Of a stretch of DNA of 64,000 nucleotides, positions 5,248-20,382 are shown piece by piece. Position 1 is the first letter of the stretch. Each line of letters begins with the position of its first letter. Source of the DNA: Candidatus Poribacteria bacterium. GTDB taxonomy: Bacteria > Poribacteria > WGA-4E > GCA-2687025. A program made the position numbers and the translations under genes. Where the stretch lies: the NCBI GenBank assembly GCA_028818695.1, contig JAPPNK010000020.1, positions 64,632 through 128,631 on the forward strand, written 5' to 3'. Below the pieces are notes generated by a model. It ran no database searches. It had not been told where the DNA came from and worked only from the letters and a program-made list of their open reading frames with translations.

Positions 5248-6753
5248 TCATCGAAGCATGAGAAAGGTCGACAACGGCAAACTGACGATGCGCGGATCAT
5301 CGACCGTTTCGGCATCAACTTGCGTGATGAGTATTCCGAAGGGAGCGTTATTCGCCGATTTTTCCAAAAATGAACGCAGCCCCAACGTGTCGCGGTGCGA
5401 ATCGATGCGCTTGCGGTATTTCACTTCTACAGGGATGCGATAATTGCCGACCGTCAAAACAAAATCGACTTCCTGGTCCATGCCTCTTTGCGGAAAATGA
5501 GCGACATCAAGACCGTGAATGGTTGAAGCCGCCGCGCCAAAGACGCTTTCCGCGATACGCCCCGCCATGTCTGATATTTCCGGCTGCTGCGCTAAAATGT
5601 CCGGCGCAAACGGAATCTGCTCCTGGAGCCAACAGGCGCGGAGACTATGGTCAGCCAAGCATATTTTGGGTCCTCCGCGCCTCTTTCTTAGACGGATCTC
5701 TAATGGAGGAATCAACCTCAACAGCAGCGTGTCTCCAAGCAGCTTCAAGTAGCTGACAACGCGCTGATAGTTAACGCCCGCTCCAAGCGTCAAATTCACT
5801 TCTTCCGTTAAAGTAGATGCGTTGGGAGCTTGACCTGCATAGCGGCATGCCAAGCGCAAAACCTCTTCCAATAATTCTGAGTCCCGTTGCTCCCCTCGTC
5901 CGCTCGCCTGCAGATCATGCTGAATGACTCTCTGGATGACCGTCTCATTCAGATGCCCCGTCAAATCTGCCATTGGAACATCTTTTTCTTTATGGGCTAT
6001 TGGGTAGCCGCCCCTCTCTGAAAACAACCGAAACGCTTCATTTCGAAATTCTTGAAACGCAACGCCCTGATTGCGCAGCGATATCCAATATTCTTTATCG
6101 CGTAGATTGGATATGCCGTTCGCCTCGAGAAACGGCGCCGGCGATGAAAGACCGCGCAGCGCGCCGATCTCTGTCAGCGAGAGAACGCCCGCTTCAATCG
6201 TGGTGATGCGCCCCGCGAGGCTGTCGCGCCCCGCTTCAATGCGTAAAGCCGAACTGCCCGTAACGACCGCTTTTACGGAGGCATGGTCCACGAGAGACTT
6301 CAACTGGGCGGCCCAGTCCCTTAAGTTCTGGATCTCGTCAAAAAAGAGATACGCAGGCTCGCCGTCATGCGCCAGCGCATTGAACCGTTTGGGCGCGACA
6401 TGCCGCTCAAACCAGTCTGTGACGCGTAAGATCGGCTCTCGAAGTTTTTTCAACGAATCCAGCTCGTCAAATTGAATGCGCAGGATGCGGAGCGGATGGA
6501 CGCCCTCGTCCAGCAGATCTTGAATCAGTTGGAGCTGCGCTGTCGTCTTGCCAATTTGACGCGGTCCTCGAACCACGACTGCCGGAGCCAAGCCAAGGTC
6601 TAAGCTGCGGCGAATCTGCGGAACCAGATGCCGACGAATAGACGGCAGCAGCGGCATCGCTTCACCCTCCCACCACGGGTTGAAACTGCGCAGATCAGCC
6701 GACAGATCCTGGGGAAGATTTATATCAGCGAAGAACTCTAATTGATCAGCCAT
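5248..6753 (-). CDS. AAA+ ATPase (COG1373 / DUF4143-type ATP-binding protein)
   Basis: 501 aa; Walker A GPRQIGKTT, Walker B-like LFFDEIQ, C-terminal region typical of DUF4143 proteins. Confidence 0.75.
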   Translation of the reverse strand: MADQLEFFADINLPQDLSADLRSFNPWWEGEAMPLLPSIRRHLVPQIRRSLDLGLAPAVVVRGPRQIGKTTAQLQLIQDLLDEGVHPLRILRIQFDELDSLKKLREPILRVTDWFERHVAPKRFNALAHDGEPAYLFFDEIQNLRDWAAQLKSLVDHASVKAVVTGSSALRIEAGRDSLAGRITTIEAGVLSLTEIGALRGLSSPAPFLEANGISNLRDKEYWISLRNQGVAFQEFRNEAFRLFSERGGYPIAHKEKDVPMADLTGHLNETVIQRVIQHDLQASGRGEQRDSELLEEVLRLACRYAGQAPNASTLTEEVNLTLGAGVNYQRVVSYLKLLGDTLLLRLIPPLEIRLRKRRGGPKICLADHSLRACWLQEQIPFAPDILAQQPEISDMAGRIAESVFGAAASTIHGLDVAHFPQRGMDQEVDFVLTVGNYRIPVEVKYRKRIDSHRDTLGLRSFLEKSANNAPFGILITQVDAETVDDPRIVSLPLSTFLMLR

Positions 6754-6950
6754 GAAGCCCTTTCATTTGATAATTACAGCGCCGCCACCCGCAATGATAA
6801 TGGATGGGAGCCTGAAAGCGCAAGCCGCGGACAACTTCCCCGCGAATTCAATGGGCGGGTCGGACAGCGGCAGCGGGTTTGGGAAAAGAGCCTTTTAGCC
6901 TTTTTGTTGGCGGATGTATTGACTGGCTCTGCTTGAAGTTGCGCGGCTAT

Positions 6951-8329
6951 TCATACCTCGCTCCAGTCAATATCTGCAGCTTTAGCCCCGACGATTTTGA
7001 GACCACCCTTTTTTTCATGGCAGACCCATTTCCCCTGAAATGTATTTTCCGTAGAACTCTCTAGTTCAAATGAGAAAATCTTTTTCATGCTATCCAGAAA
7101 TTTTTTGGCAGACGGATCTGCTGTACATAGGTTTTTTGCGACCGGATCTACTATCATAAATTCCTTGTCCTTATAGTAACAACGGCTAATAAGATCATTT
7201 AAATGCCCATCAGCATAGTTAAAGGAATATCCTGTTATAATTACTCGAGAGGCATCTTCCAAGGTATTTTTTGAGTCATGCCATATATCAATGAATTCGC
7301 TGGAGATTAATGGCTTTACTTTCAGAGGAGCTATAATATATGGTAGGATAAAAGAGGGTTCAATTCCTTTTTCAAAGTTAGTGTTATCGACAACAGTATC
7401 TTGGATGAACCCAATGATAGTTTTTTCTGTATCAATAGTACATTTTTGTTGATTATCCATTTTTATGAAGTTATTCAAATTGCCATGAAAGTAGTGCGTT
7501 TTACCGTTTCCTGGACGCTTTTCAGCGAATGATGTATAATTAAGTGTTATCATATCCCAGTCATCAGGCAGCTTAGAATAAAATGGAATAGGGTTTTTAT
7601 TATATTTATACAATACTTTCTCCTCTTGATATTTTAGAAAAGCCCAGAGGGTCCACGATTGGTATATGTACTTTTTTATATTAGATATATCATTATTGTA
7701 TAGTCCTGAAAAGCTATCAGTAAGCAGGCTCTCAATATCAGTTAGGTAACTCTGAAGGTATTTCAGTACAGGATGTTTTGGTTTCGACTTAAGTAAGAGT
7801 TCACGTATAATAACTTTATAATAGTCAGTGAAGGAGGCATTATGAACATCAATCATACGTTCATCCTCGTTATCAGATTCTCCATGTCCAAAAACCTTAT
7901 AAATTAGCTTTTCAATTTCTGGATCTGCCTTTGTACCATCATGAAGATTTTGAACTTTACTGATGATTTTACTAGCTAAAAGACCCTCATCTCTATGTTC
8001 ATCATCTAGCCCGACATCGTTAATTTGAGTATCGATGTTTGTTACAATCTCATCTATTTGAGTTCTGTTATCCCGATGTAGTAACTTTCCCACGTCAGAT
8101 TCTATTATTTTTTCATATTTAAATATATTATTAAAATAGGGTAGCACGCTCTTACTCCGAAAAGTCTTATCGATGGTTCTCCCCTCGTGCGTTTTTTTAG
8201 AAAATTGTCGATACTCGGAATGAGCTCTACCGCTAAGGGTATATCAATCCCATCGCTATTGTCTACGCCTGCGCCGCAAATAACGACTGTTTTCATTTGC
8301 GTTCTTCTCGCTTTCTCGTCTCGCTTCAA
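6951..8329 (-). CDS. SIR2-like domain protein, AT-rich, interrupted by a frameshift (two overlapping ORFs 8105..8329 and 6951..8147); possible pseudogene or phase-variable gene
   Basis: Two minus-strand ORFs in different frames overlap around a T7 (plus strand) homopolymer at about 8191-8199. N-terminal piece has VVICGAGVDNSDGIDIP (GAG motif); C-terminal piece has ITLNYTSFAEK (TxNYD-like), HYFHGNL (HG) and ITGYSFNYADGHL (GYSxxD), in the order expected for prokaryotic SIR2_2 domains. A sampled 60-nt line is 35% GC. Confidence 0.5.
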
Positions 8330-8396: not shown

Positions 8397-9845
8397 TTAA
8401 AAAAGCGTTTGTTTCATGAGGCGGCCTGTGTAAGGATCCGCCATCGGCGGCAAGGGGCATGGTCGATCATTGAAAAACTCCTCGATTGACCAGAGGCTTA
8501 GGCGCGGATACGCTTGTCCGCGGACGAGAATGTCGCCCAATGCGGCTGCGTTTGCCCTTGCGCTCGGGGAGGTGACGGTTTCTAGCGTAATGAAGCGGCC
8601 GATAGCCGCCTTATCGCGTTCAACAACGCCTATAAAATCGCGCAGGCTGCTGATATTAAACCGCCCGCCTTTGACCTGCGCCAACGCCAGTTTCGATTCC
8701 CAATTGTCAGGTTGGTCGTATAACGTGGCGCGTCCGTCCACGCCTCCGTCGGCGACCTGCTTTGTATTCGGGATGAATCCTGACAATCGGTTAACCGCCC
8801 ATGCTTCAAATTCAAAAGGCGTTTCCTTTGCCATTTTTTGCGCCGACACAAAATCCGCCGGGATCCCATGAACCGGGATCGTCAAGTCCTGCATACGCCG
8901 CTCGCGTATCATGTCGATGGCAAAGGAGCTGATGTCGACGCCCGCCCATTTTCTTTTGAGGCGGTCAGCCGCCTCCATTGCAGTGCCGCAACCGCAGAAC
9001 GGATCTAAAACGATGTCGCCTTCATTGGACGACGCCTTGATGATTCGCTCTAACAAAGACAGCGGCTTCTGCGTCGGATAGCCCGTTTTTTCTTTTGCCA
9101 TTGGGTTGACGGGGAAAATGTCTGTCCAAATATCCGATACGGGCTTACCTTTGGACGAATCTAGGTACTGTTTTCGGTTCCCAACTTGTAGCCGGTACCT
9201 GCGTCCGTCTTCATCCGTATGTTTGAAACGTCTTGCGATATACTCTTCCGTGTACGGTATGTACTGACGGTTATGCGTAAATTTTTTACTGGCGGCGTAA
9301 TTGAAAATTATATCGTGCCCGGGGACGAATTTTTGCCCGCCCGCCTTTCCTCCCGACGCTGTGCTTCTTTGCCAGACAATTTCATTTCTATAATTCGCTT
9401 TTCCGAATACTGCGTCCATGAGCAATTTTAAGCAGTGGCTCGCAGTTGGGTCGCAGTGGAGGTAAATGGAGCCTGTCGGTTTCAGAATGCGCTGCATTTC
9501 TTCAAGGCGTTCCGCCATATAGGTCAGGTATGCCAGCATGCCGCTCTCACCCAGCGCATGCCACAACCCGACAATCGCCTTATGCGCAGGACGTCCAACC
9601 GCATCTCGGAACCCGTTGTATCGAACGGCTGCAGCCTTATCCCAGTACCAGGTGTCTTTGAACGCCTGGTATTGCGCCTTGCCCGCGCCCTTTGTCCCGA
9701 AGAGAATGCTGTAATTCGCGTTGGAATTGAACGGCGGATCCAGGTAAATCAGGTCGACGCAGTCCGCGTCCCATTTCCGCATCCAGTCGAGACAATCGCC
9801 GTAGTAGAGGCTGTTGGGTTGAAGCTGATTCCCGCCGTAAGACAT
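8397..9845 (-). CDS. Beta-class N6-adenine/N4-cytosine DNA methyltransferase (PF01555-like) fused to a C-terminal Mrr-like PD-(D/E)xK domain
   Basis: 482 aa; motif IV LIYLDPPFNS precedes motif I VLDPFCGCGTA (beta-class order); C-terminal 150 aa has Mrr_cat-like FEAWAV...DGGVDG...AQVK...GRFITL pattern. Confidence 0.8.
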   Translation of the reverse strand: MSYGGNQLQPNSLYYGDCLDWMRKWDADCVDLIYLDPPFNSNANYSILFGTKGAGKAQYQAFKDTWYWDKAAAVRYNGFRDAVGRPAHKAIVGLWHALGESGMLAYLTYMAERLEEMQRILKPTGSIYLHCDPTASHCLKLLMDAVFGKANYRNEIVWQRSTASGGKAGGQKFVPGHDIIFNYAASKKFTHNRQYIPYTEEYIARRFKHTDEDGRRYRLQVGNRKQYLDSSKGKPVSDIWTDIFPVNPMAKEKTGYPTQKPLSLLERIIKASSNEGDIVLDPFCGCGTAMEAADRLKRKWAGVDISSFAIDMIRERRMQDLTIPVHGIPADFVSAQKMAKETPFEFEAWAVNRLSGFIPNTKQVADGGVDGRATLYDQPDNWESKLALAQVKGGRFNISSLRDFIGVVERDKAAIGRFITLETVTSPSARANAAALGDILVRGQAYPRLSLWSIEEFFNDRPCPLPPMADPYTGRLMKQTLF

Positions 9846-18194: not shown

Positions 18195-19355
18195 CTATGA
18201 TAGCGCCGATTCAGGCAGCAGTCGCAAAAACGCTTCATTTGCAAGCAGAACGCCGCGCCGCGTCAAGCGCAGCGCCCCGTCAGCCAGCTTCGTCAAGCCG
18301 AGGCGGGTTATCTGCTCTATCTCCGCTTGGAAATCGTCCAACAGGTTGAGGCCGTATCGGCGGGCGTATTCTGTTAAGGGAACTCCGCTGCGCATTCGCA
18401 GCCCCTGCCGAATTGTTTCAGCCCGCGCCGCCTTGCCGGCGAGCCGCTCCCGTTCAACGATCGGGTCGCGCCCTTCCTCAATCCGCTTGATGTACGACCT
18501 TGTCCCGCGCGTGTTTGCTGTGCGCTCCCCGTTCAGGTAGCCGCATGCCCCCGGACCGATTCCCGCGTGCGGTTTGTTGCGCCAGTAACGCAGATTATGC
18601 TCGCATTCGCTGCCTGGCTTGGCAAAATTCGACAATTCGTAATACGGATACCCTGCCCGCTCCATCTCATCCAGCGTCCATTCGTACATGTCGGCTTGAA
18701 GGTCCTCGTCGGGAAGGGACAGGCGGCCTTGGCGGTTCCAGTAGTGAAACACGGTTTTCGGCTCAATCGTCAGGTTGTAAACGGAAAGATGTTCAGGGTC
18801 AAGAGAGAGGGAGCGCCGCGCGTCCTCCTGCCATTTCCGCATCGTCTGACCTGGGAGGGCGAACATCATGTCGAGGTTGATGTTTTCAAAGCCGGCGTTC
18901 CGCGCGTTCTGGTAAGCGCGGTTGATCTGCTCTGAAGAGTGCGTCCTGTCAAGCTGTTTCAGGGCTGCGTCATCGAAGGTTTGCGCGCCGATGGACAGGC
19001 GGTTCACGCCCGCGTTTCGATAGGCGCGCAGGCGCGGTTCATCGGCCGTCTCCGGGTTCGCTTCAAGGGTGATCTCCGCCTGCGGTTGAATGTTGAAAGA
19101 GCGGCGCAGCGCGTCCATGAGCCAGCCCATCTGCCGGCCGTCCAGCAGCGAGGGAGTTCCTCCTCCGAAAAAGAGAGTCTTGACGGCGCCTTGAACCTCC
19201 GCTCCGACGCTCTCCGCTTCCGTCTCCAGAGCCGACAGAAACGGATCCATCAGATCGGGGCGCAGCGGATAGGTCGCAAAGTCGCAGTAACGGCATTTGC
19301 GCAAACAGAACGGAATATGGACATAAAGGCTGATGTCAGGGTTCAAGGGTTCCAT
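18195..19355 (-). CDS. hemW: Radical SAM family haem chaperone HemW (oxygen-independent coproporphyrinogen-III oxidase-like)
   Basis: 386 aa; CLRKCRYCDF radical SAM motif near N-terminus; HemN-like C-terminal domain. Confidence 0.8.
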   Translation of the reverse strand: MEPLNPDISLYVHIPFCLRKCRYCDFATYPLRPDLMDPFLSALETEAESVGAEVQGAVKTLFFGGGTPSLLDGRQMGWLMDALRRSFNIQPQAEITLEANPETADEPRLRAYRNAGVNRLSIGAQTFDDAALKQLDRTHSSEQINRAYQNARNAGFENINLDMMFALPGQTMRKWQEDARRSLSLDPEHLSVYNLTIEPKTVFHYWNRQGRLSLPDEDLQADMYEWTLDEMERAGYPYYELSNFAKPGSECEHNLRYWRNKPHAGIGPGACGYLNGERTANTRGTRSYIKRIEEGRDPIVERERLAGKAARAETIRQGLRMRSGVPLTEYARRYGLNLLDDFQAEIEQITRLGLTKLADGALRLTRRGVLLANEAFLRLLPESALS

Positions 19356-20382
19356 ACCTGTTCATGATCGGTTTGATATGGTCAAAGCGAATCCAGCGCC
19401 GAAGCGACCGCCGGGGAGCGTTCGGATCGTTTGACCAGTAGATCCAGACCGCCTTTCCCTTGACAACATCATACGGCACCGGTCCCCAGGCGCGGCTGTC
19501 CTGCGAGTTGAGCCGATTGTCGCCGATCGCAAAGTAATGGCGGTCCGGCACCTTGAAAGCGGCGTCTTCCGGTATGCTGCGGTAGGGACGGCCGCGCGCA
19601 AATGTCCACCCCATCGTCTTGGTGTTTTGATACAGGACGCCGCGCATGATTCTCCCTATCCGATTGCTCGCCTCAACGATGTAGTACTCTTTTACAGGGA
19701 TTCGGCGGTCGTACTCCCTGCCTTTCGCTCCGATGCGCAGCCGATAATTTGTTCCGTTTTCCATTGTCATGGCGGTCGGCTCTTCGTCCAGCAGCTGCGC
19801 CTCAACCTCTTCCCGTTCGATGAACTCTTGAACCGATTTCCAGGCGTCGGGCTGCTCCAGATAGTACGGGACTAGCGACGGATGGGATCTAAAAGGCGGA
19901 AAATGGGAGCCTGAATTTTTGTTTAGGAACGGCTCATTGTTGGCATACGGAAGCGGCTTGGCGTACTCTTCGTTTAAAAGCCGCTTGCCGTTGATGAGCA
20001 GCGGGCTGCCGTCTGAGGCGATCGTGTCGCCCGGCGTTGCGACGACCCGCTTGATAAAATGCTCTAGCGGGCTGTGTTTCGGGCTAAAGACAAACACATC
20101 GCCCGCCTGCGGTCCGCGGAAGTCGAAGAGGCGGGTGGAGGTCGCCGGCAATTTGGCGCCGTAGCTGAATTTCAGCACCAAGACCATGTCGCCGTTGAAG
20201 AGCGTATTTTCCATAGAGCCTGAAGGGATCTTATACGGCTCGGCGATAAACGGGCGAATAAACCCGAAGACCACGATAAACGCCATCATGAGTATCTGCG
20301 CCCAGTCCATGATGACGGAATTGCGCACGTCTATCTTTTTTTTGGCGGGCGCTTCATTGGGCGAGCGGTTTTGTTTAGACAT
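19336..20382 (-). CDS. lepB: Signal peptidase I
   Basis: 348 aa; N-terminal TM segment, catalytic Ser in PSGSMENTL, Lys in KRVVATPGD, GDNRxNSxDSR box; directly downstream of lepA. Confidence 0.85.
   Translation of the reverse strand: MSKQNRSPNEAPAKKKIDVRNSVIMDWAQILMMAFIVVFGFIRPFIAEPYKIPSGSMENTLFNGDMVLVLKFSYGAKLPATSTRLFDFRGPQAGDVFVFSPKHSPLEHFIKRVVATPGDTIASDGSPLLINGKRLLNEEYAKPLPYANNEPFLNKNSGSHFPPFRSHPSLVPYYLEQPDAWKSVQEFIEREEVEAQLLDEEPTAMTMENGTNYRLRIGAKGREYDRRIPVKEYYIVEASNRIGRIMRGVLYQNTKTMGWTFARGRPYRSIPEDAAFKVPDRHYFAIGDNRLNSQDSRAWGPVPYDVVKGKAVWIYWSNDPNAPRRSLRRWIRFDHIKPIMNRYGTLEP

What the first reader, a model, noticed from the sequence alone, without database searches (positions are those of the whole stretch)
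8105..8246. Frameshift at a T7/A7 homopolymer splits the SIR2-like gene
The 74-aa N-terminal ORF and the 398-aa ORF are in different frames and overlap across a run of seven T (plus strand, about 8191-8199). Both frames encode Lys-Lys across the tract, so a single-base slip would fuse them. This could be a sequencing or assembly error, a decayed effector (pseudogene), or slipped-strand phase variation as known for some restriction-modification genes.
Basis: seen in the sequence. Interest (0 to 1): 0.5.

Follow-up and report, generated by a model that had tools for sequence, protein, structure and literature searches.

The report
Poly-A frameshift in SIR2-like defence gene
A run of A's that is one base too short splits an otherwise intact anti-phage-type (SIR2/AbiH-like) gene in a sponge-symbiont genome, and because a near-identical strain has the intact gene, this is most likely an ordinary, very recent slippage mutation (possibly reversible or leaky), not a new kind of feature.

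Summary
On the minus strand, a gene starting at ATG 8296 changes to the -1 frame exactly at an A7 run (8192-8198; CTA AAA AAA CGC). Adding one A gives a 448-aa protein colinear with about 60 full-length homologues. A strain 98.4% identical (L173) has A8 and encodes exactly that protein, with only 4 substitutions.

Three separate assemblies of one Illumina sample all read A7. Other long homopolymers in the window lie inside intact ORFs, so an assembly error is unlikely. There are no other lesions, and all family-invariant residues are kept.

Nothing supports programmed recoding. There is no downstream RNA structure, and 159 of 160 homologous loci are unbroken. No A-run occurs at the equivalent site in the six homologue loci examined, and an A8 run is expected by chance in this gene (P about 0.4).

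Best reading: a recent A8-to-A7 replication-slippage frameshift that switches off a defence effector, possibly leaky. Adaptive phase variation is not excluded.

The parts
8192..8198 (-). A7 homopolymer (T7 on + strand) where the reading frame changes. In the zero frame it forms the slippery heptamer A_AAA_AAA (CTA AAA AAA CGC = L33 K34 K35 R).
   Evidence: Sequence read and counted. The same A7 is in L001 and L002. The sister strain L173 has A8 here.
8105..8296 (-). 5' fragment: ATG 8296 to stop 8105-8107 (63 aa). The first 35 codons are the authentic N-terminus (beta1 plus the Gly-Ala-Gly loop, residues 3-10, and helix 22-35). The remaining 28 codons are out-of-frame read-through.
   Evidence: Translation. 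Alignment with homologues, where G8 A9 G10 P20 are invariant in A1 and A2 and L21 and L25 are invariant in A1. AF2 secondary structure. The 63-aa product was called in the Logan assembly.
6951..8198 (-). 3' part in the -1 frame (KK-THEGRTIDK... to stop 6951-6953), residues 34-448 of the intact protein. It carries the TLNYT (N253), YFHG (H271) and GYSFNxxDxHxN motifs. The annotated 398-aa ORF (GTG 8147) is an artefactual start within it.
   Evidence: (P0001 = NCBI MDE0021487.1).
6948..8328 (-). AT-rich (about 36% G+C against 58.5% for the window) single-gene cassette holding the SIR2-like gene. A TIR-domain gene replaces it precisely in a sister strain whose flanks are 97% identical.
   Evidence: Composition. 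BLASTN breakpoints window vs L174: homology ends at 8329 and resumes at 6947. The Logan contig L175 starts at 6941.
8397..9845 (-). Upstream neighbour: N6_N4 DNA methyltransferase fused to a C-terminal Mrr_cat-like domain (482 aa), probably co-transcribed. It carries an A6 run (8834-8839) at the domain junction that is A5, hence frameshifted, in strain L173.
   Evidence: Pfam and PADLOC. Comparison with L173. No sigma-70-like promoter on the minus strand between the two genes.
5248..6753 (-). Downstream neighbour: AAA_14 + DUF4143 ATPase (PADLOC candidate PDC-S01), conserved flank of the variable slot.

Best explanation
This is a genuine, very recent one-base deletion (A8 to A7) in a poly-A run at codons 33-36 of a SIR2/AbiH-like defence gene, of the kind replication slippage produces. 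The host is a Candidatus Poribacteria sponge symbiont.

The shift ends the authentic protein after residue 35, just behind the beta1 strand and Gly-Ala-Gly loop at the N-terminus of the Rossmann-like domain. The remaining 413 codons have no proper start. In this strain the effector is therefore off, or at most weakly expressed. Occasional -1 ribosomal slippage on A_AAA_AAA, or RNA-polymerase stuttering, would make exactly the wild-type protein.

The tract arose by chance from Leu-Lys-Lys-Thr codons in an AT-rich, horizontally acquired cassette. It is a mutational hot spot, not a designed switch.

Shown: the position and nature of the shift, the intact A8 allele in a sister strain, the absence of other lesions, the SIR2 fold, and the defence-island and cassette context.

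Inferred: the direction (A8 ancestral), loss of function, any leakiness, and NAD-consuming effector activity.
For: Position of the shift:
- The frame break maps to the A7 run, and homologues are colinear on both sides.
- Strain L173 (98.4% nt identity over 5.1 kb) has A8 and an intact 448-aa ORF identical to the predicted fusion apart from 3 residues. The two copies of the gene differ by only 4 substitutions plus this indel.

The A7 call is reliable:
- A7 is present in three independent assemblies of one sample. A paper on a sponge-MAG study, matched to the sample only through the 'ROBB21' record-name prefix, reports Illumina 2x151 data.
- 13 of the 15 homopolymers of 7 nt or more lie within an open frame of at least 150 codons. 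The one at 8192-8198 is the only one seen to fall at a frame break. The only 8-mer sits in an intact lepB-like ORF.

No decay and no programmed recoding:
- No further stops or shifts occur, and all 31-38 invariant family columns are retained.
- 159 of 160 family loci from GTDB genomes and JGI metagenomes are single unbroken frames. None of the six homologue loci examined has an A-run at the equivalent codons.
- A8 is expected by chance in this gene (P = 0.40-0.44).
- There is no stimulatory RNA structure downstream (z = -0.02 and -0.07).

Fold and context:
- The slot turns over quickly. SIR2-like, SIR2-like plus Fic, or TIR genes lie between the same flanks in related Poribacteria.
- All 1-nt indels between the window and strains L174 and L175 lie outside the long open frames of the flanks, so frameshifts are normally purged there.
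Against: - All three A7 assemblies appear to derive from one read set, so a mixed A7/A8 population cannot be seen.
- The A8 allele comes from a 3x-coverage contig that I take, from its name, to be a long-read assembly. Homopolymer length is the typical error of such data, so A8 could in principle be the wrong call and the frameshift older and shared.
- The direction of change (A8 to A7, or A7 reverting to A8) is inferred, not shown.
- A tract-length difference between near-identical strains, plus a second poly-A difference in the adjacent methyltransferase, is also what phase variation would produce.
- Loss of function is inferred from the fold only. No expression or activity data exist.
Confidence: 0.66

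Rival explanations
1. Adaptive phase variation. The poly-A tract acts as a contingency switch that reversibly toggles a costly abortive-infection effector ON (A8) and OFF (A7) by slipped-strand mispairing. It may work together with a second poly-A switch (A6/A5) that fuses or splits the methyltransferase and its Mrr-like domain.
For: - Tract length differs (A7 vs A8) between strains whose copies of the gene differ by only 4 substitutions.
- The only other indel between these strains is also a poly-A run, in the adjacent defence gene, and in the opposite state: window MTase intact with SIR2 broken, L173 MTase split with SIR2 intact.
- The OFF allele carries no secondary damage.
- Phase-variable R-M genes are well known (own knowledge; the papers listed cover phase-variable R-M systems).
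Against: - The tract is short (7-8 A). From my own knowledge, recognised contingency tracts are usually longer, and poly-G/C tracts are the more mutable.
- It is no longer than chance predicts and is absent at this site from the six homologue loci examined.
- Only two strains are known, so there is no evidence of repeated switching.
- L173 is a 3x contig, so its two homopolymer differences might include errors.
- A6/A5 is very short for a switch.
Confidence: 0.16
2. Sequencing or assembly artefact in the window: the organism really has A8 and an intact gene.
For: Homopolymers are the classic site of indel errors. The three assemblies share one read set. The gene is otherwise perfect, and the A8 form exists elsewhere.
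Against: - Three different assembly pipelines agree on A7. If the reads are Illumina 2x151, as the paper matched through the record-name prefix reports, the consensus at a 7-8-nt run is normally reliable (own knowledge).
- The window's other long homopolymers, including an A8 in a lepB-like gene, do not break ORFs.
- The Logan contig runs 22.5 kb through the site without breaking.
Confidence: 0.08
3. Programmed recoding: the A7 allele is the normal form, and the full-length protein is made by -1 ribosomal frameshifting on A_AAA_AAA or by transcriptional slippage.
For: - The tract is in exactly the X_XXY_YYZ register, and a -1 shift yields the wild-type sequence ...FLKK-THEGR.
- C_AAA_AAA alone supports unprogrammed -1 frameshifting in E. 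coli (PMC1851650).
- Frameshifted genes can be rescued by slippage on A runs (PMC1088944).
Against: - There is no downstream stem-loop or pseudoknot beyond shuffled controls, and no Shine-Dalgarno-like element upstream (sequence reading).
- The two-ORF architecture is found in no other locus among the 160 homologous loci and the A8 sister strain.
- Evidence of selection against transcriptional slippage appears at about 9 A/T in many genomes, 8 in some, and this run is 7 (PMC1088944).
- The short product would be a 63-aa fragment with no evident use.
Confidence: 0.05

Closest known systems
SIR2-family anti-phage effectors (ThsA of Thoeris, DSR1/DSR2, SIR2-HerA/Nezha, SIR2-STAND Avs5) and lactococcal AbiH
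   Different: No Pfam SIR2, SIR2_2 or AbiH model reaches its threshold. PADLOC SIR2 models hit only weakly (7e-5, C-terminal part). There is a large helical insertion (about residues 22-231). It is a single 430-450-aa protein without SLOG, HerA, pAgo or STAND partner domains. No activity has been tested.
Slipped-strand phase variation of restriction-modification and defence genes (phase-variable mod/res genes, Pgl/BREX pglX)
   Same: A homopolymer inside the 5' coding region whose length differs by one base between near-identical strains, switching the ORF on or off. It lies in a defence locus beside a methyltransferase.
   Different: The tract is only 7-8 A, is chance-expected, and is not found at this site in the homologues examined. 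No within-population heterogeneity or repeated switching has been shown.
-1 ribosomal frameshifting on A_AAA_AAG/A (dnaX, IS3/IS1 transposases; unprogrammed at C_AAA_AAA in pDEST17)
   Same: The same kind of slippery heptamer in the correct register, with the downstream ORF in the -1 frame (PMC1851650).
   Different: No stimulatory SD or RNA structure. The architecture is not conserved. An intact allele exists.
Frameshifted genes rescued by transcriptional slippage at long poly-A runs (Baranov et al. 2005; insect endosymbionts)
   Same: A single-base indel in a poly-A run in an otherwise intact gene. Inserting one extra A in the mRNA would restore it.
   Different: Those runs are usually 9 nt or more, 8 in a few taxa (PMC1088944). 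This one is 7.

Membership tests
SIR2 superfamily (DHS-like NAD-binding fold) | SIR2-type Rossmann-like fold | tested here: met
SIR2 superfamily (DHS-like NAD-binding fold) | Glycine-rich NAD-binding loop after beta1, plus conserved Asn and His expected to be catalytic | tested here: inconclusive
   G8-A9-G10, N253 (TLNYT) and H271 (YFHG) are invariant across 41 family members. Their equivalence to the catalytic Asn/His of ThsA or DSR2 rests on motif resemblance from my own knowledge, not on a residue-level superposition.
SIR2 superfamily (DHS-like NAD-binding fold) | Match to the Pfam SIR2 or SIR2_2 model above the gathering score | tested here: not met
   No Pfam family for the window protein or P0062. 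SIR2_2 is hit only weakly by 6 of 41 members (best E 0.012). PADLOC SIR2 best E is 7e-5.
SIR2 superfamily (DHS-like NAD-binding fold) | NAD+ hydrolase, ADP-ribosyltransferase or deacylase activity | not testable with these tools
   Requires biochemistry.
AbiH (PF14253) | Significant match to the AbiH profile | tested here: not met
   12 of 41 members match only weakly (best E 8e-4), and the window protein gives no hit.
Phase-variable contingency locus | Repeat-tract length varies between closely related genomes and switches the frame | tested here: met
   A7 (window, L001, L002) vs A8 (L173) in alleles differing by 4 substitutions. Only two strains are known, and L173 has 3x coverage.
Phase-variable contingency locus | Tract longer than composition predicts, or conserved as a tract among homologues | tested here: not met
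   P(at least one A8) = 0.40-0.44 in codon shuffles. The six homologue loci examined encode FL-K/N-T with mixed codons at this site.
Phase-variable contingency locus | Length heterogeneity within a population, or a high reversible switching rate | not testable with these tools
   Needs read pile-ups or culture. The intact 448-aa product is absent from the Logan assembly of the same run, which is only weak evidence.
Programmed -1 ribosomal frameshift | Slippery heptamer X_XXY_YYZ in the zero frame with the downstream ORF in -1 | tested here: met
   CT[A AAA AAA] CGC; the -1 frame continues ACG CAC GAG.
Programmed -1 ribosomal frameshift | Stimulatory element (downstream hairpin or pseudoknot, upstream SD) | tested here: not met
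   Folding of the 52 and 92 nt downstream gives z = -0.07 and -0.02 against shuffles. No SD-like motif lies in the 20 nt upstream (sequence reading).
Programmed -1 ribosomal frameshift | Two-ORF architecture conserved among homologues | tested here: not met
   159 of 160 loci are a single frame, and the sister allele is intact.
Transcriptional-slippage recoding | A/T run of about 9 nt or more (8 in some taxa) | tested here: not met
   The run is 7 nt. The threshold comes from PMC1088944.
Decayed pseudogene | Multiple disabling lesions or loss of conserved residues | tested here: not met
   A single frameshift only, and all invariant columns are retained. The count of 3 nonsynonymous to 1 synonymous differences against the intact allele is too small to interpret.

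The most novel reading that the evidence does not exclude
Two short poly-A tracts in adjacent defence genes of an uncultivated sponge symbiont act as coupled phase switches. A7/A8 turns the SIR2-like abortive-infection effector off or on. A6/A5 fuses or splits the methyltransferase and its Mrr-like domain. The two known strains show reciprocal states. Combined with the exchange of whole effector cassettes (SIR2-like or TIR), this would let a symbiont population hold a mix of immune states.
Probability: 0.1. Interest if true: 0.55.

Novelty: new member of a known kind. Interest (0 to 1): 0.3.

Why it matters
The frameshift itself matters mainly for annotation. The 398-aa 'hypothetical protein' (MDE0021487.1) and the 63-aa ORF are two halves of one SIR2/AbiH-like defence gene that is disrupted in this strain and intact in a sister strain.

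It is a clean natural example of how defence genes are silenced by the cheapest available mutation, a slip in a chance poly-A run. The result is an allele that can revert and may be leaky.

The context is more useful than the lesion. The locus is a fixed chromosomal slot in Poribacteria, between a methyltransferase-Mrr-like gene and an AAA_14/DUF4143 ATPase. Effectors of the two folds used by known NAD-depleting defence systems (SIR2-like, SIR2-like plus Fic, TIR) are exchanged there at identical breakpoints. The SIR2-like family is uncharacterised, has no Pfam model, and is found mostly inside restriction-modification operons across bacteria and archaea.

Tried and rejected
The naturally intact allele P0062 was used instead.
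- I looked for close relatives to compare tract lengths in GTDB species representatives and JGI metagenomes. That gave 160 family loci, none above 46% identity.
- The sister strain was found only through cluster membership of the 398-aa product. An exact look-up of the A8 fusion and of an A5 version (FLKTHEGR, which fits distant homologues without a gap) found neither. The A5-ancestor idea was dropped once the A8 allele was found.
- Programmed frameshifting was tested by folding the downstream RNA and by conservation, and rejected.
- I asked whether the assembly is generally prone to homopolymer errors. It is not: the other runs of 7 nt or more checked lie inside intact ORFs.
- I asked whether the tract is over-long for its composition. 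It is not.
- The promoter/terminator scan was uninformative: no minus-strand promoter-like site between the MTase and the gene.
- The dN/dS comparison with the intact allele rests on only 4 differences, too few to use.
- The literature check for tract-length criteria in PMC5320596 gave nothing usable.

Full report
**What is in the sequence**

The gene lies on the minus strand. From ATG 8296 the frame reads MKTVVICGAGVDNSDGIDIPLAVELIPSIDNFLKK. It then runs out of frame to a stop at 8105-8107, giving 63 aa (the 74-aa ORF in the finding starts at an upstream TTG). The -1 frame is open from 8243 to the stop at 6951-6953. The T run on the + strand is 8192-8198, exactly seven bases.

In the zero frame the sequence is CTA AAA AAA CGC. 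In the -1 frame it is AAA AAA ACG CAC.

**Is the join real?**

A database search with the fused protein found 60 relatives of 247-451 aa (27-46% identity), nearly all 423-451 aa. Most cover 99-100% of the query. In the alignment the N-terminal fragment and the downstream frame are colinear with single-ORF homologues on both sides of the tract (window ..ELIPSIDNFLKK|THE-GRTIDK.. against ..ELVPRIRDFL-K|TEE-GQTIDK..). That places the frame change within the A run. All invariant columns (38 in a 20-sequence alignment, 31 in a 41-sequence one) are retained, including G8-A9-G10 in the short fragment. There is no second stop or shift.

**A sister strain carries the intact allele**

The 90% cluster of the 398-aa product contains one more member, P0062 (448 aa). 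Its contig is L173 (ENA ERZ25069412, ctg659049_3x_l). It is 98.4% identical to the window over 5.1 kb and carries A8 at this site. It encodes exactly the predicted fusion (..NFLKKTHEGR..) apart from three substitutions. The two copies of the gene differ by 4 substitutions (1 synonymous, 3 non-synonymous) plus the one-base indel.

**Is the window's A7 an artefact?**

The same A7 is present in three places:
- the NCBI MAG contig (Candidatus Poribacteria bacterium, protein MDE0021487.1);
- an ENA re-assembly (ROBB21-1_SAMN13943215 scaffold_43, L001);
- the Logan assembly of SRR10996925 (L002).

I matched the 'ROBB21' prefix of the ENA record name to a published sponge-MAG study that used Illumina 2x151 data. 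That link is my inference from the name, not something a tool confirmed (PMC8163846).

The window has 15 homopolymers of 7 nt or more, and 13 of them lie within an open frame of at least 150 codons. The one at 8192-8198 is the only one seen at a frame break. The only 8-mer (20336-20343) sits inside an intact lepB-like ORF. Comparisons with two other strains (L174, L175) show 1-nt indels only outside the long open frames of the flanks.

An assembly error is therefore unlikely (about 8%). However, all three assemblies appear to share one read set, so heterogeneity within the population cannot be seen.

Conversely, the A8 call comes from a contig I take to be a 3x long-read assembly, where homopolymer errors are the main risk. 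I still consider A8 real because it restores a frame that is intact in 159 of 160 family loci.

**Is it programmed?**

The heptamer A_AAA_AAA is in the right register for -1 ribosomal frameshifting, and a -1 slip would make the wild-type protein. But several things argue against a programmed event:
- The 52 and 92 nt downstream fold no better than shuffles (z = -0.07 and -0.02).
- No SD-like element lies upstream.
- None of the six homologue loci examined has an A run at the equivalent codons.
- 159 of 160 family loci from GTDB genomes and JGI metagenomes are single unbroken frames.

Selection against transcriptional slippage becomes evident at about 9 A/T in a large proportion of bacterial genomes, and at 8 in some (PMC1088944). 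Seven is below that. Unprogrammed -1 shifting does occur on C_AAA_AAA in E. coli (PMC1851650). Some leak to full-length protein is therefore plausible, but it would be incidental.

**Is the tract a designed switch?**

The gene is 36% G+C with 31 AAA Lys codons. Shuffling codon order, or permuting synonymous codons, gives at least one A8 run in 40-44% of trials. The gene has another A7 and several A6 runs. The tract is what this composition predicts, so it is a mutational hot spot that needs no selection to explain it.

Phase variation is not excluded, because the length differs between near-identical strains. It has no positive support beyond that.

**What the gene is**

Strand beta1 (residues 3-7) and the GAG loop lie in the 35-residue fragment. 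Any product started at GTG 8147 would therefore lack the first strand and the Gly-rich loop of the Rossmann-like core. Loss of function is an inference from this.

**Context**

In 115 non-redundant family loci the same-strand upstream neighbour is most often a restriction-modification subunit: HsdS 22, N6_Mtase 10, Eco57I 6, type III Res 5-6. Downstream neighbours include putAbiC 11, HsdR 8, Schlafen-AlbA_2 5 and Fic 3. So this is a gene family typically embedded in R-M loci and defence islands.

In the window it follows an N6_N4 methyltransferase fused to an Mrr_cat-like domain, and it precedes an AAA_14/DUF4143 ATPase.

Related Poribacteria keep the flanks but vary the insert:
- a 42%-identical SIR2-like gene plus Fic in chromosome OY762492.1 (flanking proteins 92-94% identical, MTase 77%);
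- a similar SIR2-like plus Fic pair in L008;
- a TIR-domain gene in L174, where homology with the window (97%) stops at 8329 and resumes at 6947, exactly around the gene.

All the SIR2-like inserts and the TIR gene are AT-rich (36-41% G+C) compared with 53-62% for the flanking genes. The cassette shows 1 synonymous difference between the window and L173, against 8 and 16 in the two flanking genes. This suggests it was shared recently.

**Verdict**

This is most likely a real and very recent A8-to-A7 slippage frameshift that silences, perhaps incompletely, a SIR2/AbiH-like defence effector in one strain (confidence about 0.66). The rivals are adaptive phase variation (0.16), assembly artefact (0.08) and programmed recoding (0.05).

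The phenomenon is of a known kind and of modest interest. The cassette exchange and the uncharacterised R-M-embedded SIR2-like family are the more interesting by-products.

Noticed in passing
window 6948-8328 vs L174 7515-8555: The whole SIR2-like gene is an exchangeable cassette. In a sister Poribacteria strain with 97% identical flanks, a 336-aa TIR-domain gene (41% G+C) occupies exactly the same slot, with breakpoints 33 nt upstream of the ATG and just after the stop. Other relatives carry a 42%-identical SIR2-like gene plus Fic (L005, L008). Two effector folds known from NAD-depleting defence systems are swapped between an MTase-Mrr-like gene and an AAA_14/DUF4143 ATPase, which may form a modular defence system.
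   Followed up: partly
window 8834-8839 (A6 on the minus strand, inside the MTase gene 8397-9845); L173 about 1047-1052: The only other indel between the window and strain L173 is also a poly-A run. It is A6 in the window (intact 482-aa MTase-Mrr_cat fusion) and A5 in L173. The A5 form ends the MTase after an out-of-frame tail (396 aa) and leaves the Mrr_cat part as a separate frame starting at an ATG right at the tract (MAKETPFEF...). The states are reciprocal to those of the SIR2-like gene. L173 has only 3x coverage, so this could be an error.
   Followed up: partly
window about 9084-9400 (middle of the MTase gene): Between strains that are otherwise 98% identical, the central roughly 300 nt of the methyltransferase is highly divergent yet stays in frame. 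It looks like an exchange of the target-recognition region, which would imply a different methylation specificity.
   Followed up: no
family loci L013-L172: The 430-450-aa SIR2/AbiH-like family has no Pfam model and occurs across many bacterial phyla and in archaea (Thermococcus, Archaeoglobaceae). It is usually embedded in R-M operons: upstream HsdS, HsdM, Eco57I-like or type III Res; downstream HsdR, putAbiC, Schlafen-AlbA_2 or Fic. One member follows a 1765-aa DUF87/HerA-like protein.
   Followed up: partly
window 6951-8296 vs L173 1595-2941, and flanking genes: The cassette is far less diverged between the two strains (1 synonymous, 3 non-synonymous differences) than the flanking AAA_14 (8 and 2) and 2-hydroxyacid dehydrogenase (16 and 8) genes. 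This suggests the cassette spread recently by recombination.
   Followed up: partly
window 20336-20343: The only 8-nt homopolymer in the window (A8 on the coding strand..AKKKI..) lies near the 5' end of an intact lepB-like signal-peptidase ORF (19336-20382, minus strand), directly downstream of lepA. It serves as an internal control showing that the assembly resolves 8-mers.
   Followed up: yes
window 8147-8165 (minus strand): A GGAG lies 7 nt upstream of the GTG (8147) that starts the annotated 398-aa ORF. An N-terminally truncated product could in principle be translated, but it would lack beta1 and the GAG loop (sequence reading).
   Followed up: no
L175 (Logan SRR23241728) and cluster members P0067, P0069, P0071: A short-read contig of another sample begins within a few bases of the cassette boundary (window 6941), as expected if strains with different cassettes coexist. 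The flanking AAA_14/DUF4143 ATPase occurs as 501-aa and 469-aa forms among related strains.
   Followed up: no
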